Shown piece after piece: positions 1-52,067 of a stretch of DNA of 64,000 bases (positions within the stretch are counted from its first letter, which is position 1; each line of letters starts with the position of its first letter). A program made the translations under genes and the position numbers. Source of the stretch: Candidatus Uhrbacteria bacterium (GTDB lineage Bacteria; Patescibacteriota; Patescibacteriia; GWA2-47-26); assembly GCA_016187515.1 (NCBI GenBank), contig JACPJN010000007.1, forward strand, positions 228,778 to 292,777, given 5' to 3'. Under the pieces are notes generated by a model. The model searched no databases. It saw nothing but the letters and a program-made list of their open reading frames with translations, and was not told the origin of the DNA.

Positions 1-391
1 GAAATGTCTTTATTGCGCCCATAACTGTCTCAAAAGTAACGCGATGATCCGAATGAATATCGGATCGATTGGGAAGATAGATGGTTGTCGGTTGGACTTC
101 CTTCACCACTTTAGATACCGCGGCCATTAACTCCCGTCTCGGCACAGTATCAAGCATTGTAGTTGCATACTGCAGCGGAAATACCTTTTCAAAATGATAT
201 GCCTCTACCACTTTTTTAATCTCCTCCTCCCGTATGCTAATCTGCTCCGCGCTATAACCGACCACGGGCGACATCTTGGTCATTATCAACCAATACACCT
301 GATCCCCATGGCCCGCATGTTTTAAAAGTGTTCCTCCGCAACCAAGCGTTTCGTCGTCAGGATGAGGGGCTACTACGAGTATTGTGGCCAT
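1..391 (-). CDS. PIG-L/LmbE family deacetylase, N-terminal part only (gene runs off window start)
   Basis: Manual minus-strand translation from ATG at 391: MATILVVAPHPDDETLGCGGTLLKHAGHGDQVYWLIMTKMSPVVGYS... HPDDE and GCGG motifs of PIG-L/LmbE zinc deacetylases. Absent from ORF track because no stop lies inside the window. Confidence 0.6.
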   Translation of the reverse strand, partial: MATILVVAPHPDDETLGCGGTLLKHAGHGDQVYWLIMTKMSPVVGYSAEQISIREEEIKKVVEAYHFEKVFPLQYATTMLDTVPRRELMAAVSKVVKEVQPTTIYLPNRSDIHSDHRVTFETVMGAIKTF

Positions 392-14453: not shown

Positions 14454-15917
14454 TCAAGTACCTTCCTCCCATGAACTCAAATACTTTCTTTGCTCCTCGG
14501 TTAATTCATCTTTGCGCACCTCCATTGCCTCAAGCTGCAACGCGGCAATGTCGTCATCTACTCTGGATGGTAACACATAGACCTTTGGCTCGAGTTTCCC
14601 CAGGTTCTCCACAAGATACGCACAAGCCAAAGCTTGCCCGCAAAATGAAAGCGACATCACCTCTGAAGGATGACCTTCTGCCGCGGCCAAATTCACCAGC
14701 CGCCCTTCGCCGGCGACATACAACACGCGGTCATCCGTCATCGGTTCACGGTTCACGGTTTGTGTTGATTTACTGTGAACTGTCGACTGTGAACTGTCGA
14801 CTGGCAAAGTATATTCATCCAGCATCGTCCGCACCGTCCGCACACCCTTTGCCATCTCCCGCAGTCCTTTCAAATCAATCTCCGCGTCAAAATGTCCGGA
14901 ATTGGCCAGAATCGCGCCGGATTTCATTTTAGAAAAATGCTCTGGACGCAAAACATGTTTGTCACCCGTAACCGTAATAAAAATATCGCCAAGCGTGGCG
15001 GCTTCCGCAAGCGGCATCACCCGAAATCCATCCATCACGGCTTGTAGTGCGCGAAACGCGTCAACTTCACACACAATCACATTTGATCCCATGCCGCGCG
15101 CGCGCAAAGCCACGCCTTTGCCGCAGGAACCGTAACCACACACGACCACGGTTTTGCCCGCCCACAAAATATTGGTCGCCCGCGTAATCCCATCCAGCGT
15201 GGATTGCCCGGTGCCATAGTAATTGTCCATCAGATGTTTGGTCTTATTGTCATTCACTGCTACAACCGGGTATTTAAGCGCGCCGTCGCGCTCCATCGCC
15301 CGCAAGCGGATAAGGCCTGTTGTGGTTTCCTCGGTCCCGCCAATTAAATTCGCAATAAACTCCGGGTGTTTTTTGTGAATTTCACCAACTAAATCCCCGC
15401 CATCGTCAATGGTGATCAAATTTCTCCCACCCCTCCTAGCCTCCCCTCGGGTCCCGGCTGCGGCCGAGGATCCTCGATTCTCGAGAATCGGGACAGGGGA
15501 GGAAATTGATTGTTCTCCCCCTCTTAGAGGGGGAGATTCAGAGGGGGTCCGAACCTCTACTTTCATGAACTCAATCACCCGATTTAGAAAATCGTAGTAT
15601 TCCTCATTACTCTCGCCCTTATGTGCAAATACGGCCACGCCTTCCTCCGCGAGCGCCGCCGCCACATCATCTTGAGTGGATAATGGATTACATCCGGTAA
15701 TCGCAACCTCGGCCCCGCCAGAGCGAAGCGTGCGCACCAGCACTGCGGTTTCTTTGGTCACATGCAAGGCCATACCGACAGTCACACCCGCCAATGGTTT
15801 TTCGCGCGCAAACCGCTTTCGCACTTCCAAAAGCGCGCCCATTCTACGTTCGGCTAATTCAATCTGCAGCCGCCCTTGCGGCGCAAGCGAAATGTCTTTT
15901 ACCTTGTATTGTTCCAT
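14454..15917 (-). CDS. ahcY: adenosylhomocysteinase carrying two in-frame repeat-element insertions
   Basis: ORF 14454..15947; probable start MEQYKVKDISLAPQGR. Conserved AhcY blocks (GCNPLSTQDDVAAAL, NAD site VVVCGYGSCGKGVA, HPSEVMSLSF). Inserted peptides SESPPLRGGEQSISSP...GEARRGG and PVDSSQSTVHSKSTQTVNREPM coincide with DNA repeat elements. Confidence 0.9.
   Translation of the reverse strand: MEQYKVKDISLAPQGRLQIELAERRMGALLEVRKRFAREKPLAGVTVGMALHVTKETAVLVRTLRSGGAEVAITGCNPLSTQDDVAAALAEEGVAVFAHKGESNEEYYDFLNRVIEFMKVEVRTPSESPPLRGGEQSISSPVPILENRGSSAAAGTRGEARRGGRNLITIDDGGDLVGEIHKKHPEFIANLIGGTEETTTGLIRLRAMERDGALKYPVVAVNDNKTKHLMDNYYGTGQSTLDGITRATNILWAGKTVVVCGYGSCGKGVALRARGMGSNVIVCEVDAFRALQAVMDGFRVMPLAEAATLGDIFITVTGDKHVLRPEHFSKMKSGAILANSGHFDAEIDLKGLREMAKGVRTVRTMLDEYTLPVDSSQSTVHSKSTQTVNREPMTDDRVLYVAGEGRLVNLAAAEGHPSEVMSLSFCGQALACAYLVENLGKLEPKVYVLPSRVDDDIAALQLEAMEVRKDELTEEQRKYLSSWEEGT
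14742..14802. repeat. CTGTGAACT-type tandem/inverted repeat (family Q) in-frame in ahcY
   Basis: CGGTTCACGGTTCACGG...CTGTGAACTGTCGACTGTGAACTGTCGAC. Encodes PVDSSQSTVHSKSTQTV. Confidence 0.75.
15425..15552. repeat. family P palindromic element inserted in-frame in ahcY
   Basis: ...CGATTCTCGAGAATCG (perfect palindrome) ...CCCCCTCTTAGAGGGGGAGATTCAGAGGGGGTCC. Encodes SESPPLRGGE...RGEARRGG inside AhcY. Confidence 0.75.
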
Positions 15918-16736: not shown

Positions 16737-17335
16737 AGGGCAAGCAATTCGTTAACCAGCTGATCTAAACGCTTGGAGTGGAACTGCTTAACATATTTTT
16801 TAATCCGGGCGCGGTTTAAGGTGGTACTCATGGTTTCGTAATCAAACCGCATTCCCTCCAGGTCGTCGCGAGTCCGTATCGCGCGCGGGTTGAGATAAAA
16901 ATAATCCAGCAATGCTTTTTCAGGGTGCGCAAACAAATACTTACCATGCTTTGTCTCTATATCCCCATATCCCCAAAAAAGTTTGGGTACAATAGTACGG
17001 TAGCTAAACCTGCCAAATTGGTTCGCGATCGTCCGCGTTGGCCGCGTGGTTACCGAAGTGCACACTGCCACCATCTCTGGAATAAACCCATAGTGATGCA
17101 GCGCGTACTCTAAACTAATATAACTTGGTTCATACAGCAGAAACGCGACCTCCTCCGGTATCACCTCTTTCTTACGCGCGGTAAAGACAAAAATCCCGCG
17201 CTGAATTTTTTCAATATCACCCATGCCCTGCCAGCGCGAAAGTTGGTAATCCGGCACCTGGAGATTCCGAATACGCAATTCTGTCCTTGTAAAATAGGGC
17301 TTTTCTATGATTTTAGTAAATTCTCTATATTTCAT
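16715..17335 (-). CDS. type IV toxin-antitoxin system AbiEi family antitoxin
   Basis: 206 aa. Sits immediately upstream of and overlapping the AbiEii gene. N-terminal wHTH-like region (FTRTELRIRNLQVPDYQLSRW), the usual AbiEi architecture. Confidence 0.65.
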   Translation of the reverse strand: MKYREFTKIIEKPYFTRTELRIRNLQVPDYQLSRWQGMGDIEKIQRGIFVFTARKKEVIPEEVAFLLYEPSYISLEYALHHYGFIPEMVAVCTSVTTRPTRTIANQFGRFSYRTIVPKLFWGYGDIETKHGKYLFAHPEKALLDYFYLNPRAIRTRDDLEGMRFDYETMSTTLNRARIKKYVKQFHSKRLDQLVNELLALCSPSRS

Positions 17336-18512: not shown

Positions 18513-19804
18513 AATTTTGAAATTAACCGCGTAAGATCCGCTGCGTAGGCCGGCGCGCCGGTGGCTCCGGGAGAGTTATAATTGAGGATGTGGAGCGAGC
18601 GCGGAGTTTGCGCTTCTACAACTTCCGGCACAAATCTGCCGTTGCGATCGATAAGCGAGGCGCGCACGCCGGCAGTGCCGCGCGCCACACAATCCGCCAC
18701 GCGAAGATCGGGCAAGAATTTCTGCACCCGCGCGACCATTGCGTCCTTTGATAAGGCGCTGCGCCACTCCTTACCGCACAAACGTAAAAATTCCGGATTG
18801 CGGAGTAATCGCAATTTGTTGGCCAGTGGTTTTTCAGTGAGCTTGCCAAGCACATTACCCACTCCGCGATAGGCATACGACCCAAACACCGGCACCGCGG
18901 ACGGACCAATTTCCACGCGCCCGTCCACGCGCACCACATAGTGCGGGTCAAGAAACGGAAAATCTGTGTGCCGTGGCACAGAGTACACATTACGCAATGC
19001 CAATCGTGCGCTCTCTCCTTCCACAATCAAATACTCCCCGCGAAAATTCAGATCCGCAAACTCTCGCGCCACTCCCATCAGGTGGGCGATCTTCAGCGCG
19101 GCTCCTCCGGCGCAATTCACCATATAGTGCGCTCGTAACCCCTCCTCGCCTCCCCTTACCCTAAGGGGAGGAACCTCGGCAAAATTCCCCCTCTTAAGGT
19201 AAGAGGGGGTAGGGGGAGTTATGAGTCGTTGATATAAAATATCCACTCCGTCCTTCTTCTCTACGATCTTTTTCACCTCACACCCAAACAAAAATTTCAC
19301 TCCTCTTTCTTCGGCATCATCCCGCAACGCTCGTGTGAATGCACCAAAATCTACGGCCGTATCTGTTGTGCAAAGTAAAGCACCTGCACACCAAGCGCTG
19401 GGTTCAATCTCGCGCACTTCTTCCGCACTCAAAAGCCGCACCTCGCTATCTCCCATCCCATTTTGAAGAGACCAAGCTTTATACTTCTTCAGCCGCGCGA
19501 GCTGCGCCTCATCAAGCGCCACCTCCAGCGTTCCCACCTCGCGCCAGGGCAAACCCTTGCGCGCCGCATACTCTTTCCAAAACTCGTACGACTCTTGCGC
19601 GCAGCGCGCAAACTTCCCCTTGCTGATCGGATCAAGATAAAACGGGCGGTGAATCACGCCCGTGTTTCTACTGCTGGTATGCCGCGCGACACCCTCTTCT
19701 TTTTCCACGACCACAATTCTCTCGCCTGGAATATGTTTGGACAACTGATAGGCAAGCGCTGTCCCCAAAATCCCCCCGCCAACAATAACAATATCATACT
19801 CCAT
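18509..19804 (-). CDS. FAD-dependent oxidoreductase (L-2-hydroxyglutarate oxidase/GlpA-like) with in-frame GC palindromic element insertion
   Basis: 431 aa. DIVIVGGGILGTALAYQL dinucleotide-binding motif. Inserted peptide TPPTPSYLKRGNFAEVPPLRVRGGEEG corresponds to the element at 19141..19226. Confidence 0.7.
   Translation of the reverse strand: MEYDIVIVGGGILGTALAYQLSKHIPGERIVVVEKEEGVARHTSSRNTGVIHRPFYLDPISKGKFARCAQESYEFWKEYAARKGLPWREVGTLEVALDEAQLARLKKYKAWSLQNGMGDSEVRLLSAEEVREIEPSAWCAGALLCTTDTAVDFGAFTRALRDDAEERGVKFLFGCEVKKIVEKKDGVDILYQRLITPPTPSYLKRGNFAEVPPLRVRGGEEGLRAHYMVNCAGGAALKIAHLMGVAREFADLNFRGEYLIVEGESARLALRNVYSVPRHTDFPFLDPHYVVRVDGRVEIGPSAVPVFGSYAYRGVGNVLGKLTEKPLANKLRLLRNPEFLRLCGKEWRSALSKDAMVARVQKFLPDLRVADCVARGTAGVRASLIDRNGRFVPEVVEAQTPRSLHILNYNSPGATGAPAYAADLTRLISKL
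19141..19226. repeat. family P palindromic element inserted in-frame in FAD oxidoreductase gene
   Basis: CTCCCCTTACCCTAAGGGGAG ... CCCCCTCTTAAGGTAAGAGGGGGTAGGGGGAGTTATGAG. Confidence 0.75.
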
Positions 19805-20892: not shown

Positions 20893-21849
<957 letters not shown>

Positions 21850-23590: not shown

Positions 23591-24979
23591 TCAAGGCCGG
23601 CCGACTGAAATGTATTGAAAACCCAGTAAACGCATCTTTTTTGCGTCAAGGAGATTGCGGCCGTCAAAAATAAACGGCTGGCGCATTTTTGTTTTCATTT
23701 CTGCCCACGGCAGATCGCGAAACTGCGGCCATTCGGTAAGCACAAGCACTGCATCGGCGCCTTCAGTGACTTCTTCGGGTGTTGGACATGTCACAAGCTC
23801 GGTGATCTCATGCCTTGCATTGGATTCTGCCTGATAATCAAATGCTTTTATTATCGCGCCTTCTTTCATGAGCAATCGTGTAATATCCAGAGCGGTTGAT
23901 TCCCGCACATCATCAGTATTATTTTTAAACGCCAGTCCCAGCACGCCAATCGTCTTGCCTTCCAGGGCACCAAGTATATCCCGCACACGGCGCACAAAGC
24001 GATGCCGCTGTTCCTGATTGACTTCGATCACGGCCTTGAGCAATTTAAAATCATAATCATGATTTAATGCGATATTGTGCAACGCCCGGGTATCTTTCGG
24101 AAAACACGATCCTGAATATCCTGTCCCGGCCTTGAGGAAGTGTGGGCCAATGCGGGGATCCATACCCATTCCGCGGGCTACTTCGTCTACATTCGCGCCG
24201 ACTTCGTCGCAGACATTGGCAATCTCATTGATAAAGGAAATTTTCGTGGCCAAAAACGCATTGCTGGCGTATTTAATCATTTCCGCAGTCGCAATATCCG
24301 TGACCACGCGCTCACCCGGCAATCCCTCATGCACTTTCAAAAGCGCGTCGCGCGCGCGATCCGAGTCCACCCCGATCACCACACGATCCGGATTCATGGT
24401 GTCATGCACGGCCGACCCTTCGCGCAAAAACTCCGGACAAGACGCCACGTCAAACTCAACCTGTGAACTGTGAACTGACGTCTGTGAACTAATCAATTTG
24501 CGCACTTTCTCCGCGGTCCCCACCGGAACCGTGCTTTTATCCGCGATAACTTTGTATCCCCCTCCCCTAACCCCTCCCACAAGGGGAGGGGGATTGCCGT
24601 TTACTTCCCCTCCCTCGATGGGAGGGGATTGAGGGGAGGGTGAGGGTCCCCAATTTTCCGCCACCTCACGCGCCGCGGCAAACACCTGGCTTAAATCCGC
24701 TTCGCCAGAAGGCAACGGCGGCGTGCCCACGCACAAGAAAATCACCTCGGCATTGGGCACGGCCTCGGCATACGACGTCGTGGGAATGAGCCGGCCGCTA
24801 ACCACGCCTTCGCGCACAAGTTCGGGCAGTCCGGGCTCATAAAACGGTACTTCTCCGCGACGGAGCTTCTTCACCTTGTCCGCATCTTTGCGCACGGCAT
24901 AAACCGTGTGCCCCAACTTGGCATACACTGCCGCAGAAGTAAGGCCAACGTAGCCCGCGCCGATAATCGCAATGCGCAT
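23591..24979 (-). CDS. ugd: UDP-glucose 6-dehydrogenase with two in-frame repeat insertions
   Basis: 462 aa. MRIAIIGAGYVGLTSAAVYAKLGH N-terminus and catalytic GGSCFPKD-like motif (GYSGSCFPKDTRAL). Inserts GPSPSPQSPPIEGGEVNGNPPPLVGGVRGGGYK (element 24556..24650) and SSQTSVHSSQ (24461..24490). Confidence 0.85.
   Translation of the reverse strand: MRIAIIGAGYVGLTSAAVYAKLGHTVYAVRKDADKVKKLRRGEVPFYEPGLPELVREGVVSGRLIPTTSYAEAVPNAEVIFLCVGTPPLPSGEADLSQVFAAAREVAENWGPSPSPQSPPIEGGEVNGNPPPLVGGVRGGGYKVIADKSTVPVGTAEKVRKLISSQTSVHSSQVEFDVASCPEFLREGSAVHDTMNPDRVVIGVDSDRARDALLKVHEGLPGERVVTDIATAEMIKYASNAFLATKISFINEIANVCDEVGANVDEVARGMGMDPRIGPHFLKAGTGYSGSCFPKDTRALHNIALNHDYDFKLLKAVIEVNQEQRHRFVRRVRDILGALEGKTIGVLGLAFKNNTDDVRESTALDITRLLMKEGAIIKAFDYQAESNARHEITELVTCPTPEEVTEGADAVLVLTEWPQFRDLPWAEMKTKMRQPFIFDGRNLLDAKKMRLLGFQYISVGRP
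24461..24490. repeat. family Q repeat in-frame in ugd
   Basis: CTGTGAACTGTGAACTGACGTCTGTGAACT. Encodes SSQTSVHSSQ. Confidence 0.75.
24556..24650. repeat. family P palindromic element inserted in-frame in ugd
   Basis: CCCCTCCCACAAGGGGAGGGG ... CCCCTCCCTCGATGGGAGGGGATTGAGGGGAGGGTGAGGGTCC. Confidence 0.75.
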
Positions 24980-27170: not shown

Positions 27171-28001
27171 TCACTCGATCACGATTTGCTCATCAATTCT
27201 TTTTATCGACTTTGCTAATTTAGTGGTTTCATTAATCTCCACCAGCACCGCGCTGATTTGACACAACCCGGTTTCCACTGGCGTGTGCTTGAATGGCTGT
27301 TGCAGTAGGAATGAGCGGATAATCCCATTTTTTTCTTCACCTAAAATTGAATCCACGGCTTGCACTCCGCCCACTTCGGTTACATACGCGGTGCCGCTGG
27401 GCAAAATGCGGGTGTCCGTCGTGCCCATCGAGGTATGCGTGCCCAGCACGGCGGAAACCCGGCCATCAGCGTAATTGCCCAAAGCATTAGCTTCGGAAGT
27501 GGCTTCACAGTGAAAGTCCACCAGAATGCCATTCAATTCTCCCCCTCTTAGGTTAAGAGGGGGCGGGGGGGAGTTATGATACCTCGCCAAAATCTCATCC
27601 AGCTTCCGAAATGGATCATCATACTGCGACTGAAAAAACACCCGGCCCATTAAGTTTACCACCAGCAGCCGAATTTTTCCATCTTTGCTTTCCACTACCA
27701 TATCGCCGCGTCCCGGCAAACCCGGCGGAAAATTGGCTGGCCGCACCAGCGGTAAATCTCCGCGAGCCATCAGCTTGGCCCCTTCGGCCTTAAACGAATG
27801 GTTGCCGCCCGTTACGCAATCCACTCCGGCATCCAAAAGTTCGCGCACGGTTTTTTCAGTCATGCCTACGCCATGCGCCAGATTTTCTCCATTGCCAATT
27901 ACAAAATCCGGCTTGTATTTCTTGCGCCAGCGCGGCAAGACCTCGGCCACGGCCCGCCGCCCGATTTTTCCGAAGATGTCGCCGATGAATATGATGCGCA
28001 T
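27171..28001 (-). CDS. ymdB: YmdB-family metallophosphoesterase (2',3'-cyclic-nucleotide phosphodiesterase) with in-frame palindromic insert
   Basis: 276 aa. MRIIFIGDIFGKIGRRAV...DFVIGNGENLAHGVG metallophosphatase motifs. Adjacent to rny. Inserted SPPPPLNLRGGE coincides with the element at 27541..27578. Confidence 0.8.
   Translation of the reverse strand: MRIIFIGDIFGKIGRRAVAEVLPRWRKKYKPDFVIGNGENLAHGVGMTEKTVRELLDAGVDCVTGGNHSFKAEGAKLMARGDLPLVRPANFPPGLPGRGDMVVESKDGKIRLLVVNLMGRVFFQSQYDDPFRKLDEILARYHNSPPPPLNLRGGELNGILVDFHCEATSEANALGNYADGRVSAVLGTHTSMGTTDTRILPSGTAYVTEVGGVQAVDSILGEEKNGIIRSFLLQQPFKHTPVETGLCQISAVLVEINETTKLAKSIKRIDEQIVIE
27541..27578. repeat. family P palindromic element (short copy) inserted in-frame in ymdB
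   Basis: CCCCCTCTTAGGTTAAGAGGGGGCGGGGGGGAGTTATGAT. Confidence 0.7.
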
Positions 28002-29810: not shown

Positions 29811-29858
29811 CTCTCCCCCTTAGGATAAGGGGGAGCAAGAGGGGGTTACGAACCCTCA
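29811..29858. repeat. family P palindromic element in rny 5' region
   Basis: TCCCCCTTAGGATAAGGGGGAGCAAGAGGGGGTTACGAACCC, about 40 nt upstream of the rny start codon. Confidence 0.65.
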
Positions 29859-31337: not shown

Positions 31338-31937
31338 TTATGGCAATTGGGCTAGGATTTTGCGCTTGAGGCGGGAGAATTGATGAGCGTTAAGGTTGAG
31401 CTCGGGTACTTCTATTGTCTTTTGCAATAATTCGCGCAGACGCTCCGTGTGCGAGGTCAAATTGTGGGCCTTAACGAGCTTCGCGTATAAGCTCCAATCA
31501 ATGCCGGTATTAAGCAATCCGATAATGTCCACGCGATCTTTCTCACCTTTTAAACTATGCCCACGATCGTGCCAGGCATGTTGCTTGAGAATAAGTAAGA
31601 CGGCTTTTCGCGGCAGAGTAAATCCTTCCACCTGCGCAGTATGTTTCTGCACCGTCTCAATCGGGAGTCCCAGATCGGAAAAATACGGGACATAAACATC
31701 CACATCAATTTCTTCAAGATGAATCTCGTATTTCTTTAGTCGATCGTTTTTAAAAAGCTCGTGTTCTTTGCGTAAGCGTTCCAACTCGCCATACGCTACA
31801 ATCACATCAATATCTTTTGATTTCAATTGTTTGGTATATAAATATACTGCCCATCCGCCAATTAAAATAAATTGATGCTGACGTTTGAGGTCTTGAAGCA
31901 TCCTCCAGCTTTTTTCAGTAATGAGCTCATGATACAT
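31338..31937 (-). CDS. minimal nucleotidyltransferase-fold protein (candidate toxin)
   Basis: 199 aa. FILIGGWAVYLYTKQLKSKDIDVIV fits the hG[GS]-x(9-13)-DhD Pol-beta-type NTase motif. Immediately downstream (4 nt) of an HTH protein gene. Confidence 0.45.
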   Translation of the reverse strand: MYHELITEKSWRMLQDLKRQHQFILIGGWAVYLYTKQLKSKDIDVIVAYGELERLRKEHELFKNDRLKKYEIHLEEIDVDVYVPYFSDLGLPIETVQKHTAQVEGFTLPRKAVLLILKQHAWHDRGHSLKGEKDRVDIIGLLNTGIDWSLYAKLVKAHNLTSHTERLRELLQKTIEVPELNLNAHQFSRLKRKILAQLP

Positions 31938-31940
31938 ATC

Positions 31941-32582
31941 TCACAGTTTCATTTTTTCTTTTAGCGCTTCGAGAAATTCTTTGGCATACCAATGCGGGGT
32001 ATTCCAGATATCCACGAAGGTTTGCGCGTCGGACGTCAGGTGCGGCTCCGGCGCGCCCAGAGCATCGGGTTTTAAGACCACCAGATTTTCATAGCCCCTG
32101 GTTTTCGGAAAACGCGCTCTGATCGCGTCCACATCAGGGGCATACACATACACCACGTCATAATCCGCCGGCGCGTCCTTGTAGCGCAGGCGATAGGCGC
32201 TGAAGGCCGCAAAGATCGCGCCGGGAACCATCGCCCCCTCGATTTTTTGTACGGATGCGTCAACGTGGGTGGCATAAAGAATGTCGCGCTTGAGGTTACG
32301 CTGCGTTGCCCAAAGATAAAGCAGTTTTTCCGGATCACGCAGGCGAAAAAATCGTCCGGTTACCTCCACCGCGCCGATCTTGCGCGGGATATCCAGGGCG
32401 TGGTGTACGGTGCTCAAAGAAAACCGAAAGCGCCGCGCCAGCTCTTTTTGCGTAAAGGTTGGCAACTTTTTTGGGCTGGCCGTGTCCAAAATATGGCGCC
32501 AAATTAGCTCTTTTTTGGTCATACCCGGTTTCGATTTCTTTACCCTATTTATAGCTTCATTTCTATTATAATCGAAACTCAA
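31941..32582 (-). CDS. winged-HTH DNA-binding protein (candidate antitoxin/regulator partner of the NTase)
   Basis: 213 aa. N-terminal TQKELARRFRFSLSTVHHAL helix-turn-helix. Gene order HTH then NTase mirrors AbiEi-AbiEii modules. Confidence 0.4.
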   Translation of the reverse strand: MSFDYNRNEAINRVKKSKPGMTKKELIWRHILDTASPKKLPTFTQKELARRFRFSLSTVHHALDIPRKIGAVEVTGRFFRLRDPEKLLYLWATQRNLKRDILYATHVDASVQKIEGAMVPGAIFAAFSAYRLRYKDAPADYDVVYVYAPDVDAIRARFPKTRGYENLVVLKPDALGAPEPHLTSDAQTFVDIWNTPHWYAKEFLEALKEKMKL

Positions 32583-32614: not shown

Positions 32615-35600
32615 TTACGCGCTATTTTTGCTCTTGCGCGTGATAAGAAACCAAGCCGCGCGGGTTCCGGAGACAAAGAGTTTCCGCCGGCGCAGCGCGG
32701 CCGCGGCCGCCACCGCGCCTCCTCCGGCCGCCGTGGCGGTAGTATAGGGAGAGGGTTCGGCGGTTGATGCTCCGTCTTTTTCTGTCTCCGCGCCAGTTGC
32801 GCCCAACAATTCATCTTTACTCAAAATCTCAATATCTTCGGTAAACCTGGGCATGAGTTGATACCCGTTTTTGGTCTGTCCTAAAATACCCGTAACCGCG
32901 ACTCTAAATCCCGGGACAAGCTCGGTCATCTTAATATCGGTCGTATTCTTTACCGCCACATAAACTTCCCCGGCCGCATCCTCCAAAGTAAATCCGGAGT
33001 TTTTTATATCAATAATCGTGCCTTCCATCTTAATTAACGCGGCCTCGGTTTCCTCACCAACTTCATCGCTTAAAACCTGGCGCGGAATTGGCGCTTTTCC
33101 TTTCTTAATAAATCCAACGTCTTCCTTATCTTTAACGCGAATCCGATACTCGCCGCCGGCCTGACCCAGTACGCCTTGAACGGTAACCACATCGCCAATC
33201 TCAAGCGCCGGAAACGCTTTTTTGCTGGAATAAACCTGCAAACCTGATTCCCGGCTTTGCCGAGGATCCTCGGTAGTAAAGCTACCGGGACCGAATAAAT
33301 AAAAAATCTGCGCGCCGAGCATTCCGGGCGGCGCGGAAACCACTCCTTGCACGCGGACTTTTGTACCCAGCTCAAGATCACGCACTTCGGAAAGCGGTAC
33401 TTCCTGCGCGGCGTAAGACCCCTCCTCCGCTCCGCGCGGGAGAGGAGGGGGTGAGGACGATTCAATCACATTTTTCGCGCCCGGTGTTAACTTCCCGGTC
33501 CATCCCCACTGACCGTTTTGCGTCCGCGCGTAACTGTGTCCCTCACGCGCTTCTTCATACTCCACACTATCGATCAGCCGACCGACCGGATCAAACAAGC
33601 GCACCGCGTCCGTTGTATTGTTGAGCGTAAGCCGCGTTTTTGATTTGGGGAAAAGCGCGTAGCTGTGCGGCGCGGCTTTAACCGCCTCAATCGTATGGGC
33701 CGGACTCCCGCCTTCGATGTCATCCAGTTTAAATCCGGCCAGATCCAATTCTTCAGCGCCATCCCAAAACAGTTCAAGCCATTCTCCCTCATCAGATCCC
33801 TCCGGATCAGGAATAAATTCCGAGATGAAAAGTTTATCTCGCACATCAGAAATCCCCTCACCCCCACCCTCTCCCGCAGGGGGCGAGGGAGTACGATTGG
33901 CTTCCTCCCCCTTGATGGGGGAGGATTGAGGAGGGGGTGGTAATTTTGTGTTATCTGTGTCGATTTTCTGTGATTCTTCAATCACGTTTCCCTGCCCTTT
34001 CGTCACCTTCGCCGTTACCGCAAAATCCTTCTGATCATTAGCGGTGTCTTGCCCGTCTACCCGTCGGGCAACCGAATGGGGGTCTTGAGCGGCTGGCGCG
34101 TTATCCGAAGGTATGCCATCCTCCCACACGCCATAGGCCACGCGATCCACTACTGCGTTTTTATCATTTTTTAGCCGAATGATGTCGCCCTTGTTGTTGA
34201 GATTGCCTTTGATTGTCTCCACCACCAAAAACATTCCGGGAACAATGGTGCCTTGCAATTTGGTCTTACTTTCCGCGCCTTCTTCTAAAAACCAACCTTG
34301 AAGATCAACCGCGACCTCGCCGGAGTTAAAAAGTTCAACCCACTCCTCGCCGTCTTCCGGATCAGACACGAATTCGTTGATCACTATTTCCGCGGAAGGA
34401 ATGTTCGATGGCGCGGATACAACATCTGTGCCTCCGCGAGTAACGGTTTCAGTAATAACTTTGATTGCGGTAATGGTATTGGCCGAACCCTTGGTTGGGG
34501 TAGATGAAACCGCAAAATCGACGTTATCTATTCCAGTATCCGCGCCATTGCTTTTGCGCGCCACCGCGTGTCCGGGAGTATCGGGCGCCGGGGCATTGTC
34601 GGAAATGTTTCCATCGTTCCAATCGCCATAAGCGGCTTTATCGAGAAGCAACCCCGCGGCCGACTTCAGTTCAATAACGTCGCCGCTATTGTTGAGCCGC
34701 GCGGACGAAACTTCAAAAACCAAAAAGCCGCGCGCCGAAATTGTGCCCGTAAGCGATTTTATGGAATTGCCGGTGCCGTCATAAATTCTCCACCCGGCCA
34801 AATCAATCGGGAGATTAGTATTGTTGTAAAGTTCAATCCACTCCACGCTGTCGGTCGGATTGGGAACAAACTCATTGATAACCACCTCTCCCGCGCCAAC
34901 CACCCCTTCCTCCCCTCCTGCCAAAGGAGGGGGAAGCGGATCGTTTTCCTCCCCTGCCGGAGGAGGGTCGCCTTCCTCGCTTTCTCCCCCTTCTGAAGGG
35001 GGAGATTCAGAGGGGGTCCCAAGCTCCGGCCGTACCGCACTTACGCTATTTCGCGGATCCGCGCTTGCCCGTAACACAAAATCCGCGACATTGTTATTGG
35101 TATCCGCGCCGTTACCTTCCGCGCCGCCCGGAAGACGCTCAATACTTTCGCCCGCGCCCGGATTTGCCGCGAAAACTGTCCCTTCCACAAAAGCGTTTGC
35201 CGCCGTACCCCAGCCGACCGCGTCAATGATCTCGCCGGTATTTTCCGGGCCGCGGCGAAGGGCGATCCCGTTGTCCGGAGCAATCGTGCCTACGGTGGTT
35301 TCATCCGGCGTAACCGCGATAGCCGTAAACCCGCTATTGGCCCAAAGATAATAGCCGTGGGATGGCACTAGCGCCGCTTCGGTCCAGGATTTCAGAGTAG
35401 TGTCGCTGGTGCCCGTGGCGGTTCGCTTCACCAGCCGTATCCCATTCAAATCTACGGCCGCGGCCGTGGGATTGTAAAGCTCCACAAAATCATTCGTAGT
35501 TTTTCCCGCCCCGCCGGTGATCTGCACTTGGGAAATTAGCAGTCCGGTACCATGCGCGGCCGAGGCAAGGTTCCCCAAATAAAAAAATCCCCCCACTACT

Positions 35601-35635
35601 ACTAAAAATATAGAAATCCTTCGGTAAAACACCAT
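32615..35635 (-). CDS. large cell-surface protein with four lamin-tail domains (LTD) and repeat-element-derived P/G/E-rich linkers
   Basis: ORF 32615..35788; probable start MVFYRRISIFLVVVGGFFYLGNLASA (signal/TM) at 35635, because the longer ORF would run through tRNA-Leu. Four repeats of the LTD pattern, e.g. INEFVPNPTDSVEWIELYNNTNLPIDLAGWRIYDG. Linkers PPSEGGESEEGDPPPAGEENDPLPPPLAGGEEG coincide with GC palindromic elements. Confidence 0.7.
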   Translation of the reverse strand: MVFYRRISIFLVVVGGFFYLGNLASAAHGTGLLISQVQITGGAGKTTNDFVELYNPTAAAVDLNGIRLVKRTATGTSDTTLKSWTEAALVPSHGYYLWANSGFTAIAVTPDETTVGTIAPDNGIALRRGPENTGEIIDAVGWGTAANAFVEGTVFAANPGAGESIERLPGGAEGNGADTNNNVADFVLRASADPRNSVSAVRPELGTPSESPPSEGGESEEGDPPPAGEENDPLPPPLAGGEEGVVGAGEVVINEFVPNPTDSVEWIELYNNTNLPIDLAGWRIYDGTGNSIKSLTGTISARGFLVFEVSSARLNNSGDVIELKSAAGLLLDKAAYGDWNDGNISDNAPAPDTPGHAVARKSNGADTGIDNVDFAVSSTPTKGSANTITAIKVITETVTRGGTDVVSAPSNIPSAEIVINEFVSDPEDGEEWVELFNSGEVAVDLQGWFLEEGAESKTKLQGTIVPGMFLVVETIKGNLNNKGDIIRLKNDKNAVVDRVAYGVWEDGIPSDNAPAAQDPHSVARRVDGQDTANDQKDFAVTAKVTKGQGNVIEESQKIDTDNTKLPPPPQSSPIKGEEANRTPSPPAGEGGGEGISDVRDKLFISEFIPDPEGSDEGEWLELFWDGAEELDLAGFKLDDIEGGSPAHTIEAVKAAPHSYALFPKSKTRLTLNNTTDAVRLFDPVGRLIDSVEYEEAREGHSYARTQNGQWGWTGKLTPGAKNVIESSSPPPLPRGAEEGSYAAQEVPLSEVRDLELGTKVRVQGVVSAPPGMLGAQIFYLFGPGSFTTEDPRQSRESGLQVYSSKKAFPALEIGDVVTVQGVLGQAGGEYRIRVKDKEDVGFIKKGKAPIPRQVLSDEVGEETEAALIKMEGTIIDIKNSGFTLEDAAGEVYVAVKNTTDIKMTELVPGFRVAVTGILGQTKNGYQLMPRFTEDIEILSKDELLGATGAETEKDGASTAEPSPYTTATAAGGGAVAAAAALRRRKLFVSGTRAAWFLITRKSKNSA
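33420..33460. repeat. family P-like palindrome inside LTD surface protein gene
   Basis: CCTCCTCCGCTCCGCGCGGGAGAGGAGGGGGTGAGGACGATTC. Encodes SSPPPLPRGAEEG. Confidence 0.55.
33853..33945. repeat. family P palindromic element inside LTD surface protein gene
   Basis: ...CTCCCCCTTGATGGGGGAGGATTGAGGAGGGGGTGG; the GATTGAGG tail is shared with the ugd copy. Confidence 0.7.
34902..35017. repeat. family P palindromic element (composite) inside LTD surface protein gene
   Basis: ...CCCCTTCTGAAGGGGGAGATTCAGAGGGGGTCCC; the AGATTCAGAGGGGGTCC tail is identical to the ahcY copy. Confidence 0.75.
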
Positions 35636-35728
35636 GGTATTGAAAAACTTTCGGTATTCTGCTATATTATAACATACGCGCCGCGGTGGTGAAATGGCAA
35701 ATTTACCCCGTAAGCTCTTGCCCAGATG

Positions 35729-35750
35729 GCGGAACTGGAATACACAGCCC
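35729..35750 (+). other. degenerate partial copy of tRNA-Leu 5' end
   Basis: GCCCAGATGGCGGAACTGGA versus tRNA 5' GCCGAGATGGCGGAATTGGC, 17/20 identical, lying about 30 nt upstream of the intact tRNA. Confidence 0.5.
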
Positions 35751-35760
35751 TCCAAAATTT

Positions 35761-35844
35761 GCCGAGATGGCGGAATTGGCAGACGCACTGGGTTTAGGAC
35801 CCAGCGATCGCAAGATCATGGGAGTTCAAATCTCCCTCTCGGCA
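35761..35844 (+). tRNA. tRNA-Leu (anticodon TAG)
   Basis: GCCGAGATGGCGGAATTGGCAGACGCACTGGGTTTAGGACCCAGCGATCGCAAGATCATGGGAGTTCAAATCTCCCTCTCGGCA. 7-bp acceptor stem, anticodon loop TTTAGGA, long variable arm, T-arm GGAGTTCAAATCTCC. No encoded CCA. Confidence 0.85.
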
Positions 35845-35910
35845 AATTTAGGCGGGCCAATATAACTTAAACAAACTTAATCTTGACAATCCCGGCTCCG
35901 GATGGTAGGT

Positions 35911-39147: not shown

Positions 39148-40866
39148 TCATTCTGCCACTCGGAAGACCTCTTCCACCGTCGTAATCCCGTCTAAGGCCT
39201 TGAGCAGGCCGTCTTGAACCATGGTGATCATGCCGGCTTTGACCGCAATTTCCTGCAGGGTATATTCGGAGATTTTTCCGGCCAGCACCACCTCTTCAAT
39301 TTCTTTATTCATCATCATTACCTCAAAAATACCCACCTGTCCTTTGTAGCCCAGATCAAAACAGCGCGCGCAGCCCCGGCCGCGGTAGAATTTTAAGGCG
39401 GCTAACGGCTGACGGTCCCGGCTTTGCCGAGGACTCTCGGTTTGACCGGAGCTTACCGCGGACTGCTCTTTGGGAAGCGCCGCGAGTATTTCTTTCACGC
39501 GCTTAAGCGTCTCCTCCTCCAATTTCACCTCTTCTTTGCACTCCTCGTGAATCCGGCGAACCAACCGCTGGGCCATTACCGCGTTAAGCGCGGGAGCCAG
39601 CAGAAACGGTTTAGCCCCCAACGCTAAAAACCGCGGAATCGCGCCGGAGGCGGAATTAGTATGGACGGTGGAAAGCACCAAATGTCCGGTAAGCGCGGCT
39701 TGGATCGCGATATCCACGGTTTCCAGGTCGCGGATCTCGCCGACCATAATCACATCCGGGTCTTGGCGCAAAATCGAACGCAGCCCTTCGGCAAAGGAAT
39801 AATGCTTGGCCGTATCAATTTGGCTTTGCGCGATGCCGGGAAGTTTGTACTCGATGGGATCCTCCAGGGTAATGATCTTGGTCTCCGGATTATTGAGTTT
39901 ATGCAAAGCCGCGTAAAGCGTGGTGGTTTTCCCCGAGCCGGTCGGCCCGGTCGTGATAATCATGCCGTTGGGACGCTTAATTTCCGCCATCAGTCGCTCA
40001 AACGGCTTGCCCCGCAACCCCAATTCTTCAAAGTTAAGCCCCTTGGAAATTGGTTTCAAAATACGAATCACCACGGACTCTCCCTCGGAAGTGGGAATAG
40101 TGGAGACGCGCACCTCCACATTTCCCTCTTTTACAAAAATAGTAAACCGCCCGTCTTGGGGACGATCGGTAACATTAATCTTTAGCCCGGAGATTAACTT
40201 GATCCGCGAAACAACCTTGGGCCACTCGGATTTATCAAGCTTGGCGACTTGATGAAGGACCCCATCAATGCGAAAGCGCACCACAATAGCGGCGCTTTCG
40301 GCTTCAATATGAATATCGGAAGAATTGGCCCGCAAGGCCGAGGCGACCAGCAGGGTGACCAGATCGGTAACCGCTGCGCCTTTGAGCCGCGCCTGGAGCT
40401 CGTCAAACGAATGAAATTCTTCTTTAAAATTCGCCAAATCCTCGGCCTTAATTTCCACGCCTTTGACGGACGGCTTAAGGCGAGGCAGTTTCGCGTATAA
40501 CTTAAGCGCGTGATCTAAAGAATCATCCGAGATCATGTAAATCAACCCGCGGGCCTTAATCCGCTCCTGAATTTGATATAGCAGTTCGTGGAGCGCGGGA
40601 TTTTCCGGACGCGGACTCCCTATCCTAAACTCGTCTCCAATATAAAAAAAACACACTACGGATAGCTGCCGGGCCTGCTCCTCCGGGATAATCCGCAGCG
40701 CCTCCGTACTAATCGGAAACTTTACCAACTGAATATAGGGAATGGCGGCGCGCGAGGCGGCCTGTTCAATGTCATGTTCCTTGCCGCGCAAGTTCAGCTC
40801 CTTCATCTTTTCTTCAAACTCCTGCCGGGCCTCTTTGGAACTGATGCGCGGAAACTGATTGTCCAT
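39148..40866 (-). CDS. type II/IV secretion system ATPase (GspE/PilB family)
   Basis: 572 aa. Walker A GPTGSGKTTTLYAAL; GEIRD and tetracysteine motif (GCARCFDLGYKG) typical of PilB/GspE. Confidence 0.85.
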   Translation of the reverse strand: MDNQFPRISSKEARQEFEEKMKELNLRGKEHDIEQAASRAAIPYIQLVKFPISTEALRIIPEEQARQLSVVCFFYIGDEFRIGSPRPENPALHELLYQIQERIKARGLIYMISDDSLDHALKLYAKLPRLKPSVKGVEIKAEDLANFKEEFHSFDELQARLKGAAVTDLVTLLVASALRANSSDIHIEAESAAIVVRFRIDGVLHQVAKLDKSEWPKVVSRIKLISGLKINVTDRPQDGRFTIFVKEGNVEVRVSTIPTSEGESVVIRILKPISKGLNFEELGLRGKPFERLMAEIKRPNGMIITTGPTGSGKTTTLYAALHKLNNPETKIITLEDPIEYKLPGIAQSQIDTAKHYSFAEGLRSILRQDPDVIMVGEIRDLETVDIAIQAALTGHLVLSTVHTNSASGAIPRFLALGAKPFLLAPALNAVMAQRLVRRIHEECKEEVKLEEETLKRVKEILAALPKEQSAVSSGQTESPRQSRDRQPLAALKFYRGRGCARCFDLGYKGQVGIFEVMMMNKEIEEVVLAGKISEYTLQEIAVKAGMITMVQDGLLKALDGITTVEEVFRVAE

Positions 40867-51802: not shown

Positions 51803-52060
51803 ATGACCATCAATGACTTTATAAAACAGCGCCCGCATCTGATTTGGTATACCAAGAATTATGCCGGTCTTAATGCGGAGGCAATTGTCGAGGCAACGCT
51901 CAATTACGGAAATTGGAAGGACGTACAAACGCTGATAAAAATTATGGGGGTGAAGGAGGTGGCACGCGTCTTTACTACCTACGCGAACCGGCCAAGATGC
52001 AATTATCGTCCTGATATTAAGCATTTTTTTACTCTTTACTTTAAGCGCCATGCCCCGTAG
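51803..52060 (+). CDS. small AbiEi-like wHTH protein (candidate antitoxin), cassette 1
   Basis: ORF 51773..52060, but its first ATG lies inside the promoter spacer, so the start is taken as MTINDFIKQRP. Homologous to the small protein at 54709 (shared L[YW]Y...YG[ND][WL]K..Q...G......R.....YR pattern). Confidence 0.5.
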   Translation: MTINDFIKQRPHLIWYTKNYAGLNAEAIVEATLNYGNWKDVQTLIKIMGVKEVARVFTTYANRPRCNYRPDIKHFFTLYFKRHAP

Positions 52061-52067
52061 TGAAACC

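What the first reader, a model, noticed from the sequence alone, without database searches (positions are those of the whole stretch)
32615..35635. Four-LTD surface protein whose inter-domain linkers are built from palindromic elements; the unadjusted ORF start overlaps tRNA-Leu
The 1006-aa protein has an N-terminal anchor/signal, four lamin-tail domains (INEFVPNPTDSVEWIELYN...DLAGWRIYDG pattern) and an Ala/Gly-rich C-terminus. At least three family P elements sit between the domains, translating to acidic Pro/Gly linkers. This may show selfish repeats being exapted as flexible spacers in an adhesin-like protein. The longest ORF (to 35788) would run antisense through tRNA-Leu, so the start must be the internal MVFYRR at 35635.
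Basis: partly seen in the sequence, partly recalled or inferred. Interest (0 to 1): 0.5.

Follow-up and report, generated by a model that had tools for sequence, protein, structure and literature searches.

The report
Hairpin repeats form surface-protein linkers
A surface protein of an uncultured Candidatus Uhrbacteria bacterium has floppy inter-domain linkers made largely of short hairpin-forming DNA repeats, and the same repeats sit in frame inside housekeeping enzyme genes, much like the palindromic elements known from Rickettsia.

Summary
ORF 32615-35635(-) encodes a 1006-aa protein, identical to an NCBI entry from Candidatus Uhrbacteria.

Three of the four inter-domain linkers carry six C-run/G-run hairpin elements. 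These linkers coincide with the disordered segments of the AlphaFold model.

The elements are not a by-product of Pro/Gly/Glu coding:
- The hairpins are more perfect than synonymous-codon resampling allows.
- The window holds 13 such hairpins against about 1.4 expected.
- Eleven of the 12 that belong to this family lie inside ORFs, including AhcY, UDP-glucose dehydrogenase, a DAO-type oxidoreductase and YmdB.
- One ~90-nt two-hairpin unit recurs with sharp boundaries in a different gene of a different genome.
- In syntenic orthologues (71-84% identity) the five largest internal indels all fold into strong hairpins (-26 to -45 kcal/mol).

Orthologues of the LTD protein have linkers at the same sites, but with zero or one element, sometimes in another reading frame.

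Best reading: tiny mobile palindromes, like Rickettsia palindromic elements, that persist where the encoded peptide is tolerated. They have lengthened existing linkers. Exaptation is possible but not shown. The start-codon call at 35635 is correct.

The parts
32615..35635 (-). CDS of the 1006-aa LTDx4 / tandem-OB surface protein (stop codon 32615-32617)
   Evidence: ORF. Identical to an NCBI protein. Pfam domains. AF2 model mean pLDDT 82.
35555..35635 (-). Signal peptide / N-terminal hydrophobic helix (aa 1-27, ..LASA|AHG)
   Evidence: Sequence shows RR, a hydrophobic core and ASA-A. AF2 helix at 2-23. Cleavage is inferred, not tested.
35036..35548 (-). LTD1 (aa ~30-200)
   Evidence: One of 4 Pfam LTD stretches. 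pLDDT above 90.
34886..35026 (-). Linker 1 (aa 204-250), disordered. A composite of three hairpin elements.
   Evidence: pLDDT below 50 at 205-243. Hairpins. Shares the architecture of the DAO and UGDH composite elements.
34983..35005 (.). Element A: TCTCCCCCTTCTGAAGGGGGAGA, 11-bp perfect stem (translated SPPSEGGE)
   Evidence: The sequence from the 5' flank GGACCCCCTCTGAA to the start of the stem (23 nt, 34997-35019) is identical to the AhcY copy at 15514. RNA dG -22.3.
34950..34970 (.). Element B: degenerate hairpin CCTCCTCCGGCAGGGGAGG (PPPAGEE)
   Evidence: Weak on its own (z -1.3). Orthologue P0006 has an intact 10-bp version, TCCTCCCCTCCGGCAGGGGAGGA, at the same linker.
34912..34932 (.). 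Element C: CCCCTCCTGCCAAAGGAGGGG (PLPPPLAGGEEG)
   Evidence: dG -24.4, z -4.0.
34466..34885 (-). LTD2 (aa ~251-390)
34394..34465 (-). Linker 2 (aa ~391-414). Disordered, with no palindrome.
   Evidence: pLDDT below 50 at 394-411. No hairpin found. Better conserved among orthologues than the other linkers.
33980..34393 (-). LTD3 (aa ~415-552)
   Evidence: Best Pfam LTD stretch, 413-502..
33836..33970 (-). Linker 3 (aa 556-600), disordered. A two-hairpin composite element.
   Evidence: pLDDT below 50 at 557-593. Aligns with the UGDH and DAO composites.
33903..33925 (.). Element D: TCCTCCCCCTTGATGGGGGAGGA (SSPIKGEE)
   Evidence: dG -19.5, z -6.7.
33855..33889 (.). Element E: CCCTCACCCCCACCCTCTCCCGCAGGGGGCGAGGG (TPSPPAGEGGGEG)
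   Evidence: dG -27.2, z -4.5.
33470..33835 (-). LTD4 (aa ~601-722)
33401..33466 (-). Linker 4 (aa 724-745) between LTD4 and the OB module
   Evidence: pLDDT below 50 at 728-740.
33419..33450 (.). Element F: CCCCTCCTCCGCTCCGCGCGGGAGAGGAGGGG (SPPPLPRGAEEG)
   Evidence: Its 3' end GAGGGGTCTTACG resembles the 3' terminus GAGGGGTTACGA of the DAO composite.
32816..33400 (-). Tandem OB-fold module (aa ~746-940)
   Evidence: PF01336 at 33.4 bits against a cut-off of 27; weak DUF5689 and DUF4131. Foldseek matches HIN-200, Teb1, RPA and the Lys/Asp-tRNA synthetase anticodon-binding OB fold.
33244..33290 (.). Family-2 palindromic insertion (GPGSFTTEDPRQSRESG, aa 782-798) in a loop of OB1
   Evidence: pLDDT below 50 at 785-788. 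Absent from 6 of 7 orthologues. 45/48 nt identical to the copy in the P0004 gene, the most conserved window of the gene.
32618..32815 (-). Low-complexity stalk, conserved P-Y..T motif, TM helix (aa 973-1000) and RRRK
   Evidence: Invariant P963, Y964, T968, R982-984 in orthologues. No known sorting-signal model matched.
35666..35693 (-). Promoter-like site TTCACC-16-(TG)TATAAT, about 30 nt upstream of the ATG
   Evidence: A consensus match only.
35760..35845 (+). tRNA-Leu(tag), divergent from the LTD gene
   Evidence: ARAGORN. Rfam RF00005 at 57.4 bits.
15514..15536 (.). Family P copy in frame in adenosylhomocysteinase (SPPLRGGE), within a ~47-aa insertion
19149..19211 (.). Two-hairpin composite in frame in a DAO-type FAD oxidoreductase (+26 aa against the syntenic orthologue)
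   Evidence: The same ~90-nt unit lies in the AhcY gene of L128.
24556..24628 (.). Two-hairpin composite in frame in UDP-glucose 6-dehydrogenase
27539..27565 (.). Single hairpin in frame in a YmdB-type phosphoesterase (exactly +10 aa)
29813..29835 (.). The only intergenic family P copy, upstream of RNase Y

Best explanation
The gene. It encodes a secreted, C-terminally membrane-anchored surface protein of a Candidatus Uhrbacteria (Patescibacteria/CPR) bacterium. The order is signal peptide, four Ig-like lamin-tail domains, a tandem OB-fold module of the nucleic-acid-binding type, a stalk and a TM helix.

The linkers. Three of its four disordered linkers consist largely of six copies of a short repeat. 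The repeat is a pyrimidine C-run arm, a small loop and the complementary G-run arm (23-35 nt). It is often flanked by an extra C-box and G-box, and often paired into a ~90-nt two-hairpin unit.

The elements. These belong to a dispersed, MITE-like family of palindromic elements that insert into protein-coding genes. Copies persist only when they keep the reading frame, contain no stop codon, and land where a Pro/Gly/Glu(/Arg)-rich coil is tolerated, such as enzyme surface loops and inter-domain linkers. This is the behaviour described for Rickettsia palindromic elements.

In the LTD protein they have been added to linkers that already existed, roughly doubling their length.

Shown here: the repeat family, its in-frame location, presence/absence between orthologues, the same unit in different genes of different genomes, and coincidence with disordered segments.

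Inferred: mobility by transposition (no transposase identified), translation of the inserts, and any benefit to the protein. The protein's role is inferred to be binding of extracellular nucleic acid at the cell surface, without nuclease activity of its own.
For: 1. Repeat family. The window has 13 hairpins against a simulated mean of 1.4. Of these, 11 are inside ORFs and all are stop-free and in frame.
2. DNA-level signal. Stems exceed synonymous-codon resampling in all three linkers (P 0.009, 0.045, 0.015). Copies 34983 and 15514 share an identical 5' flank and differ in the stem by compensatory changes.
3. Insertions relative to homologues. AhcY has about +47 aa against PDB 7zd8. UGDH has about +29 aa against 4a7p. 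YmdB has exactly +10 aa against a 72%-identical syntenic orthologue.
4. Variable content in close relatives. Sixteen AhcY orthologues at 68-85% identity range from about 418 to 505 aa. Their P-type inserts sit at three hot spots, present in some and absent in others.
5. Syntenic comparison with L128 (71-84% aa identity). The five largest internal indels (9-26 aa) all fold into strong hairpins, dG -26 to -45 kcal/mol. Smaller internal indels (4-7 aa) do not.
6. Same unit, different gene, different genome. A ~90-nt composite (ATAACTCCCCCTACCCCCTCTTACCTTAAGAGGGGG...GGGGAGGCGAGGAGGGGTTACGA) lies in the window's DAO gene and in L128's AhcY gene. Similarity starts and stops sharply at the element ends.
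7. LTD orthologues. P0002, P0012 and P0006 each carry one hairpin in a linker, two of them read in other frames (NLPLQKGER, SPLPSRREGS). P0004 carries none.
8. Structure. The element-encoded segments match the pLDDT<50 segments 205-243, 557-593 and 728-740.
9. Spread. About 24 of the first 80 loci are Patescibacteria, and about half of those lie inside long ORFs.
10. Protein function. LTD and OB domains confirmed. LTD plus OB are the accessory domains of the surface nucleases ExeM and Xds, in which the OB region is required for activity (PMC6085458, PMC6746945).
Against: - No transposase or RAYT-type gene was found among about 50 of the 58 ORFs of the window scanned with Pfam, so the mobilising activity is unknown.
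- No strain-level (>90% identity) relatives exist in the databases searched, so recent insertion or excision in this gene cannot be shown directly.
- There are no expression or proteomic data, so translation of the inserts is inferred only from frame and stop-codon conservation.
- All copies in the window lie between 15.5 and 36.7 kb. That clustering is unexplained.
- Hairpin B is weak on its own.
- The eDNA-binding role rests on domain analogy only.
Confidence: 0.75

Rival explanations
1. The palindromes are a by-product of selection for Pro/Gly/Glu-rich flexible linkers. CCN (Pro) and GGN (Gly) codons are reverse complements, as are CTC/GAG and TCT/AGA, so a P...G peptide yields hairpins without any repeat element.
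For: The linkers are P/G/E/S-rich. With the peptide fixed, the expected hairpin count is not zero (0.04-0.19 per linker). Hairpin B is weak.
Against: - Observed stems exceed synonymous resampling in all three linkers.
- The same sequences, including non-palindromic flanks, occur in enzymes where no linker is needed.
- Orthologues read the same hairpin in three different frames, giving different peptides.
- Only 3 of 120 family members show the peptide motifs, so the family does not need them.
Confidence: 0.05
2. The hairpins are maintained for a nucleic-acid-level function. One option is mRNA structures that pause ribosomes at domain boundaries to aid co-translational folding of each LTD. Another is DNA sites for recombination, replication or gene conversion. 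On this view they are not merely tolerated selfish DNA.
For: Compensatory changes keep the stems intact. In the LTD gene the elements fall exactly at domain boundaries. The family-2 insert is 94% identical at nucleotide level between orthologues that are 58% identical overall, making it the most conserved 48-nt window of the gene.
Against: Most orthologues lack the elements at those boundaries and one has none. The same elements lie in enzyme loops that are not domain boundaries. Presence/absence among close AhcY orthologues looks erratic. Stem conservation is equally expected if the hairpin is what the mobilising enzyme recognises.
Confidence: 0.12
3. The inserts are intervening sequences removed after transcription or translation (mini-intron-like or intein-like), so the mature protein has short linkers.
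For: CPR genomes are known for insertions in rRNA genes (my knowledge). This window has a bona fide intein in IF-2.
Against: All 11 intragenic copies keep the frame and are stop-free, which excision would not require. One frame of several copies would contain TAA/TAG and is never the frame used. The inserts have no splicing motifs, and 23-90 nt is far too small for known self-splicing elements. There was no Rfam hit.
Confidence: 0.04
4. Assembly or sequencing artefact of a metagenome-assembled genome.
For: The source is a MAG. Hairpins can cause polymerase errors.
Against: Equivalent in-frame elements occur in independent assemblies from NCBI, JGI, ENA and Logan. The ORFs remain intact.
Confidence: 0.01

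Closest known systems
Rickettsia palindromic elements (RPEs; Ogata et al. 2000, from my knowledge; summarised in PMC10969869)
   Same: A dispersed palindromic repeat family. Many copies are inserted in frame in unrelated housekeeping genes and add a peptide segment without destroying the protein. Copies are present or absent between related genomes.
   Different: RPEs are ~100-150 bp and restricted to Rickettsia. These elements are 23-35 nt single hairpins or ~90-nt double hairpins with a C-run/G-run stem. They occur in Patescibacteria, and the bare hairpin type occurs in many phyla. Sequence relationship to RPEs was not tested. Here several copies stack in the linkers of one multidomain surface protein.
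REP elements / BIMEs mobilised by RAYT (Y1) transposases (PMC3733652, seen)
   Same: Size (20-40 nt), G+C-rich imperfect palindromes, high copy number, often clustered in pairs.
   Different: REPs are extragenic by definition and carry GTAG/CGTC tags. Here 11 of 12 copies are intragenic, the ends look like TAAC...GTTA, and no RAYT gene is in the window.
MITEs that form in-frame fusions (ERIC, QMITE1, enterobacterial RU elements; PMC10969869, PMC2759123)
   Same: Non-autonomous, with terminal inverted repeats, and occasionally intragenic with an open frame. The composite unit has TIR-like ends flanked by TA.
   Different: Those are mostly intergenic and larger than 100 bp. No parent IS has been identified here.
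GC clusters, double-hairpin elements and coding palindromes of mitochondrial genes (e.g. Nematomorpha, PMC6649704)
   Same: Hairpin elements embedded in coding sequence and translated.
   Different: They occur in organellar genomes and belong to different sequence families.
ExeM (Shewanella) and Xds (Vibrio) surface nucleases (PMC6085458, PMC6746945)
   Same: Signal peptide, LTD, OB-fold region, long unstructured linkers, envelope association through a C-terminal hydrophobic segment.
   Different: No EEP or other nuclease domain here. There are four LTDs instead of one. NF033680 scores 57 bits against a cut-off of 1300.

Membership tests
Lamin-tail-domain (PF00932) proteins | Pfam LTD match above the gathering score | tested here: met
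   184.5 bits against 34.3, 4 stretches.
Lamin-tail-domain (PF00932) proteins | Ig-like beta-sandwich fold like the lamin A/C globular domain | tested here: met
   AF2 model has all-beta domains with pLDDT above 90. Foldseek hits 1ifr and 3gef with TM(target) 0.60-0.64.
OB-fold nucleic-acid-binding domain (PF01336) | Pfam match above the gathering score and an OB fold | tested here: met
   33.4 bits against 27. Tandem OB matches to HIN-200, RPA, Teb1 and aaRS anticodon-binding domains. Nucleic-acid binding itself was not tested.
ExeM/Xds-type extracellular nuclease | Catalytic endonuclease/exonuclease/phosphatase domain | tested here: not met
   No EEP or other nuclease domain in Pfam. NF033680 scores 57 bits against a cut-off of 1300 and matches LTD only.
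Sortase / exosortase / archaeosortase substrates | Recognised C-terminal sorting signal (LPXTG, PEP-CTERM, PGF-CTERM and similar) | tested here: not met
   No NCBIfam model matched. A conserved P-Y-x3-T + TM + RRR(K) tail exists, but its processing is unknown.
RPE-like in-frame palindromic elements (functional class) | Multi-copy palindromic repeat in one genome | tested here: met
   13 against 1.4 expected. Shared flanks.
RPE-like in-frame palindromic elements (functional class) | Inserted in frame in unrelated protein-coding genes, including housekeeping genes | tested here: met
   AhcY, UGDH, DAO, YmdB and the LTD protein.
RPE-like in-frame palindromic elements (functional class) | Presence/absence polymorphism between related genomes | tested here: met
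Rickettsia RPE families proper | Sequence homology to RPE-1..10, length ~100-150 bp, Rickettsia host | tested here: not met
   Length is 23-90 nt and the host is Patescibacteria. Sequence comparison with RPE consensus sequences was not run.
REP/BIME | Extragenic location | tested here: not met
   11 of 12 copies are inside ORFs.
REP/BIME | Associated RAYT (Y1 transposase) gene | tested here: inconclusive
   None among about 50 of the 58 window ORFs scanned. The rest of the genome was not available.
MITE | Terminal inverted repeats and target-site duplication | tested here: inconclusive
   The composite unit starts TAACTCCCC and ends GGGGTTA in two independent copies. This is compatible with a TIR plus TA duplication, but no empty site was compared at nucleotide resolution (one search was ambiguous).
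MITE | Cognate autonomous IS with matching ends | not tested
   Needs the whole genome. Only an rve-family integrase gene was seen in L128 and its ends were not compared.

The most novel reading that the evidence does not exclude
Ultra-short hairpin elements (single ~30 nt, double ~90 nt) may be a major, so far undescribed source of protein indels across Patescibacteria, and possibly other phyla. On this reading they routinely insert in frame and supply ready-made disordered Pro/Gly/Glu segments, which become the linkers of multidomain surface proteins.

The family-2 copy is 94% conserved at nucleotide level, at the same codon, in two orthologues that are only 58% identical overall. That hints at site-specific homing, gene conversion or an RNA-level function rather than passive decay.
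Probability: 0.3. Interest if true: 0.75.

Novelty: new variant of a known kind. Interest (0 to 1): 0.55.

Why it matters
If these elements are mobile and translated, they extend the Rickettsia idea of selfish DNA inside proteins to the very large uncultured CPR radiation, with elements three to five times smaller.

Three consequences follow:
- Many puzzling length differences between CPR orthologues would be explained. AhcY ranges from about 418 to 505 aa among close relatives.
- Annotation and phylogenetic pipelines should mask such inserts.
- There would be a concrete route by which disordered linkers in surface proteins grow.

The protein itself is a catalytically silent LTD/OB module anchored at the cell surface. 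That makes it a candidate extracellular nucleic-acid receptor in organisms that, from my knowledge, generally lack de novo nucleotide synthesis and must scavenge nucleotides.

Tried and rejected
- Rfam over the whole window found only the tRNA. There is no described RNA family for the hairpins.
- Five literature searches for such elements in CPR/Patescibacteria found RPE, REP and MITE papers but no description of these elements. Absence from this library is not proof of novelty.
- Pfam scans of about 50 of the 58 window ORFs for a transposase or RAYT found none. There is only a stand-alone GIY-YIG protein and an intein LAGLIDADG.
- NCBIfam found no sorting signal.
- Nucleotide alignment at the YmdB insertion site, intended to define a target-site duplication, was ambiguous because the site is in a variable stretch.
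- A metagenome scan for the family-2 core gave only 3 hits, so that family is rare or variable.
- A viral-contig scan for the DAO hairpin gave 1 hit, which was not followed up.
- The terminator interpretation was rejected. No T-run follows the hairpins, and the terminator scan found none at these sites.
- A Foldseek search with the full-length model gave only local domain hits, as expected.

Full report
**1. The observation**

The ORF listing gives 32615..35788(-), 1057 aa. ARAGORN and Rfam place tRNA-Leu(tag) at 35760-35845(+), so the first 29 nt of the longest ORF run antisense through the tRNA.

The internal ATG at 35635 gives a 1006-aa product. Four lines of evidence support this start:
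- It is identical to an NCBI entry, 'lamin tail domain-containing protein [Candidatus Uhrbacteria bacterium]', on a 318-kb contig.
- Orthologue N-termini align with MVFYRR.
- A promoter-like TTCACC-16-TG-TATAAT sits at 35693-35666, inside the discarded extension.
- The gene and the tRNA are divergently transcribed.

Pfam finds four LTD stretches (184.5 bits, cut-off 34.3) and also an OB-fold (PF01336, 33.4 bits against 27), with weak DUF5689 and DUF4131 matches.

**2. Anatomy of the protein**

An AlphaFold2 model built from a 53-sequence alignment has mean pLDDT 82. Confident all-beta domains lie at about 30-200, 251-390, 415-552 and 601-722 (the four LTDs) and at 746-940. Segments with pLDDT below 50 lie at 205-243, 394-411, 557-593, 728-740, 785-788 and 943-977. 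There are helices at 2-23 and 973-1000.

Foldseek against the PDB matches the C-terminal module to tandem-OB DNA binders (HIN-200 domains of p204, IFI16 and AIM2; Teb1; RPA) and to the anticodon-binding OB of Lys/Asp-tRNA synthetases. It matches the LTDs to the lamin A/C globular domain.

The N-terminus looks like a Sec signal peptide (RR, hydrophobic core, ASA|A; inferred). The tail is P-Y-x3-T, then a hydrophobic helix, then RRRK. It is invariant among orthologues but matches no known sorting-signal model.

No nuclease domain is present. The ExeM model matches only through LTD (57 bits against a cut-off of 1300).

**3. The palindromes**

A hairpin scan of the window finds 13 hairpins with a pyrimidine C-run 5' arm and a G-run 3' arm. 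Markov-1 simulations give 0-3 (mean 1.4).

Five lie in the gene, at 34983-35005, 34912-34932, 33903-33925, 33855-33889 and 33419-33450. A sixth, degenerate copy lies at about 34950-34970. Its intact counterpart is present at the same linker in orthologue P0006.

All six fall in linkers 1, 3 and 4, which are the disordered segments of the model. Linker 2 has none. Predicted RNA hairpin energies are -19 to -27 kcal/mol, with z = -2.7 to -6.7, except for the degenerate copy.

CCN/GGN codon complementarity could create hairpins in any P...G peptide, so I resampled synonymous codons with the peptide held fixed. The observed stem length is reached with P = 0.009, 0.045 and 0.015 for the three linkers, and codon shuffling gives P ≤ 0.01. 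The palindromy is therefore a property of the DNA, not of the peptide.

**4. The same elements are inside enzymes**

Copies are distributed as follows:

| Position | Host |
|---|---|
| 15514 | adenosylhomocysteinase (AhcY) |
| 19149 and 19185 | DAO-type oxidoreductase |
| 24556 and 24606 | UDP-glucose dehydrogenase (UGDH) |
| 27539 | YmdB-type phosphoesterase |
| 29813 | intergenic, upstream of RNase Y |

Another hairpin at 36661 is intergenic and looks different. So 11 of 12 family members are intragenic, in frame and stop-free.

Compared with solved structures, AhcY has about 47 extra residues at one site and about 22 at another. UGDH has about 29 extra. Compared with a syntenic, 72%-identical orthologue (L003), YmdB has exactly 10 extra residues, NSPPPPLNLR.

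Copies 15514 and 34983 are identical from the 5' flank GGACCCCCTCTGAA into the stem (23 nt). They differ inside the stem by paired, compensatory changes.

An alignment of all copies shows a common plan: C-box, hairpin 1, a ~10-nt spacer, hairpin 2, G-box. Linker 3, the UGDH insert and the DAO insert are such two-hairpin units. Linker 1 is one with a third hairpin in the spacer. Linker 4, YmdB and AhcY carry single hairpins.

**5. Evidence for mobility**

(a) Sixteen AhcY orthologues at 68-85% identity range from about 418 to 505 aa. Their P-type inserts lie at three hot spots, present in some and absent in others.

(b) L128 is a syntenic locus from another metagenome with 71-84% protein identity. 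The five largest internal indels (9-26 aa) are all strong hairpins (-26 to -45 kcal/mol). The smaller internal indels (4-7 aa) are not.

(c) The ~90-nt composite in the window's DAO gene recurs in L128's AhcY gene. Similarity begins at ATAACTCCCC and ends at GGGGTTACGA, and the flanks are unrelated. That is the signature of a discrete transposed unit. The ends are compatible with terminal inverted repeats flanked by TA, but a target-site duplication was not proven.

(d) Orthologues of the LTD protein (46-56% identity) have conserved domains and hypervariable linkers. At DNA level P0002 and P0012 each have one hairpin in linker 3, read in two other frames (NLPLQKGER, SPLPSRREGS). P0006 has one in linker 1. 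P0004 has none in 13.8 kb.

My arithmetic gives about 9 expected by chance. About 24 of the first 80 loci are Patescibacteria, and about half of those lie within long ORFs. Recurrent translations are TPSxSPPYQGGDxEGV, PPLNLPLxKGE and NPLxISPLxRGR, the three frames of one nested palindrome.

**6. What this means for the finding**

The exaptation step is not supported by anything beyond location. Linkers exist at the same junctions in every orthologue with or without elements. Only 3 of 120 family members show the peptide motifs. Enzyme loops are colonised equally.

The economical reading is survivorship: inserts persist where a P/G/E coil is harmless. They still lengthened the linkers substantially. 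Linker 1 is 47 aa, against about 14-46 aa in orthologues.

A functional contribution such as reach, flexibility or negative charge, or an mRNA-level pausing role, remains possible but untested.

**7. Function of the protein (inference)**

LTD plus OB are the accessory domains of the envelope-associated nucleases ExeM and Xds. In those proteins the OB region is essential for DNA degradation and the LTD is dispensable (PMC6085458, PMC6746945). Relatives in the search carry source names such as 'DNA/RNA endonuclease YhcR' and 'Nucleic acid binding OB-fold'.

With no catalytic domain, the protein is most plausibly a surface-anchored binder of extracellular nucleic acid or another polymer. 'Adhesin' is not excluded, but it has no specific support.

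**8. A further insertion**

Residues 782-798 (GPGSFTTEDPRQSRESG; 33244-33290) form a low-confidence loop in OB1. The loop is encoded by a different palindrome, with consensus GGTCCCGGCTTTGCCGAGGA|TCCTCGGCAAAGCCGGGACC. A second copy lies in the PilB/T2SSE gene at about 39395-39433, and a partial copy lies in AhcY.

It is absent from six orthologues but present at the same codon in P0004. There it is 45/48 nt identical, while the genes are 58% identical overall. It is the most conserved 48-nt window of 846 tested. This points to recent acquisition at the same site, gene conversion, or nucleotide-level constraint. I could not discriminate among these.

**9. Comparison and novelty**

The behaviour matches Rickettsia palindromic elements, which are in-frame, occur in housekeeping genes and are polymorphic (Ogata 2000 and Claverie & Ogata 2003 from memory). 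The elements differ from RPEs in size, sequence type and host.

They fail the defining extragenic criterion of REPs. The MITE criteria (TSD, parent IS) remain open. No transposase was found in the window. I found no description of such elements in CPR in the literature library.

I therefore rate this a new variant of a known kind. The LTD protein itself is an already annotated member of a large Patescibacteria family, with 1438 hits at E ≤ 0.001.

Noticed in passing
window 33244-33290; ~39395-39433; partial copy 15445-15480; L003/L126 (P0004 gene); L127 1919-1960: A second palindromic insertion family (~40-nt near-perfect palindrome GGTCCCGGCTTTGCCGAGGA|TCCTCGGCAAAGCCGGGACC) lies in frame in the LTD gene (OB1 loop), the PilB/T2SSE ATPase gene and AhcY. 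The LTD copy is 94% identical to the copy at the same codon in an orthologue that is only 58% identical overall.
   Followed up: partly
window 14773-14797 (AhcY), 21461-21485 (PfkB kinase), 24461-24475 (UGDH): A third in-frame repeat family (ACAGTTCACAGTCGACAGTTCACAG..., translated SSQSTVHS...) also forms a hairpin with a downstream GTGAACCGTGAAC arm.
   Followed up: partly
window 35718-35746 and 35747-35770 / 35834-35857; L127 1896-2055: A 29-nt, 83% copy of the tRNA-Leu 5' end lies just upstream of the gene. The leader and trailer form a 24-nt inverted repeat. In L127 a 24-nt copy of the tRNA-Thr 5' end, followed by a family-2 palindrome, precedes the real tRNA-Thr, and the same GCCCnCCnAAATTT leader is present. 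These could be an integration scar or a processing stem.
   Followed up: no
window 54314-54349 and 60673-60708: An identical 36-nt perfect palindrome, TGTCCCAAAATCTCACGGCCGTGAGATTTTGGGACA, occurs twice, 6.36 kb apart. The pair brackets an AbiEii-like gene, IF-2 and a bPH_2 gene.
   Followed up: no
window 56055-59651 (+): The translation initiation factor IF-2 gene is interrupted by an intein with a LAGLIDADG homing endonuclease (1198 aa).
   Followed up: no
window 15963-16736, 52050-52679, 54960-55574, 31338-31937 with 31941-32582: There are several AbiEii-type nucleotidyltransferase toxin genes or fragments. A DUF6036 NTase pair lies directly downstream of the LTD gene. The 15963-17335 module is inserted between DAO and AhcY relative to the syntenic locus L128.
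   Followed up: no
window 5347-5622 (-): A stand-alone 91-aa GIY-YIG nuclease gene sits in a sugar-biosynthesis cluster. It is the only free-standing nuclease-type candidate seen that could act on hairpins; the other nuclease domain seen is the intein LAGLIDADG. This link is pure speculation.
   Followed up: no
L128 6626-7690 (PfkB orthologue): This gene has two extra in-frame hairpins that the window's PfkB gene lacks. One belongs to yet another family (GTAGCGCGGGGCTTTATGCCCC...GTGCCGCGCTAC, -37 kcal/mol).
   Followed up: no
alignment A1, linker 1 of P0004 and P0009: In place of hairpin elements, these orthologues carry a Cys-rich mini-motif (CGN[DS]TCETGE..TSCS.DC) in linker 1.
   Followed up: no
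window 15.5-36.7 kb against the rest of the window: All family P hairpins cluster in about 21 kb of the 64-kb window. None lies in 1-15 kb or 37-64 kb, although gene density and strand are similar in 1-15 kb.
   Followed up: no
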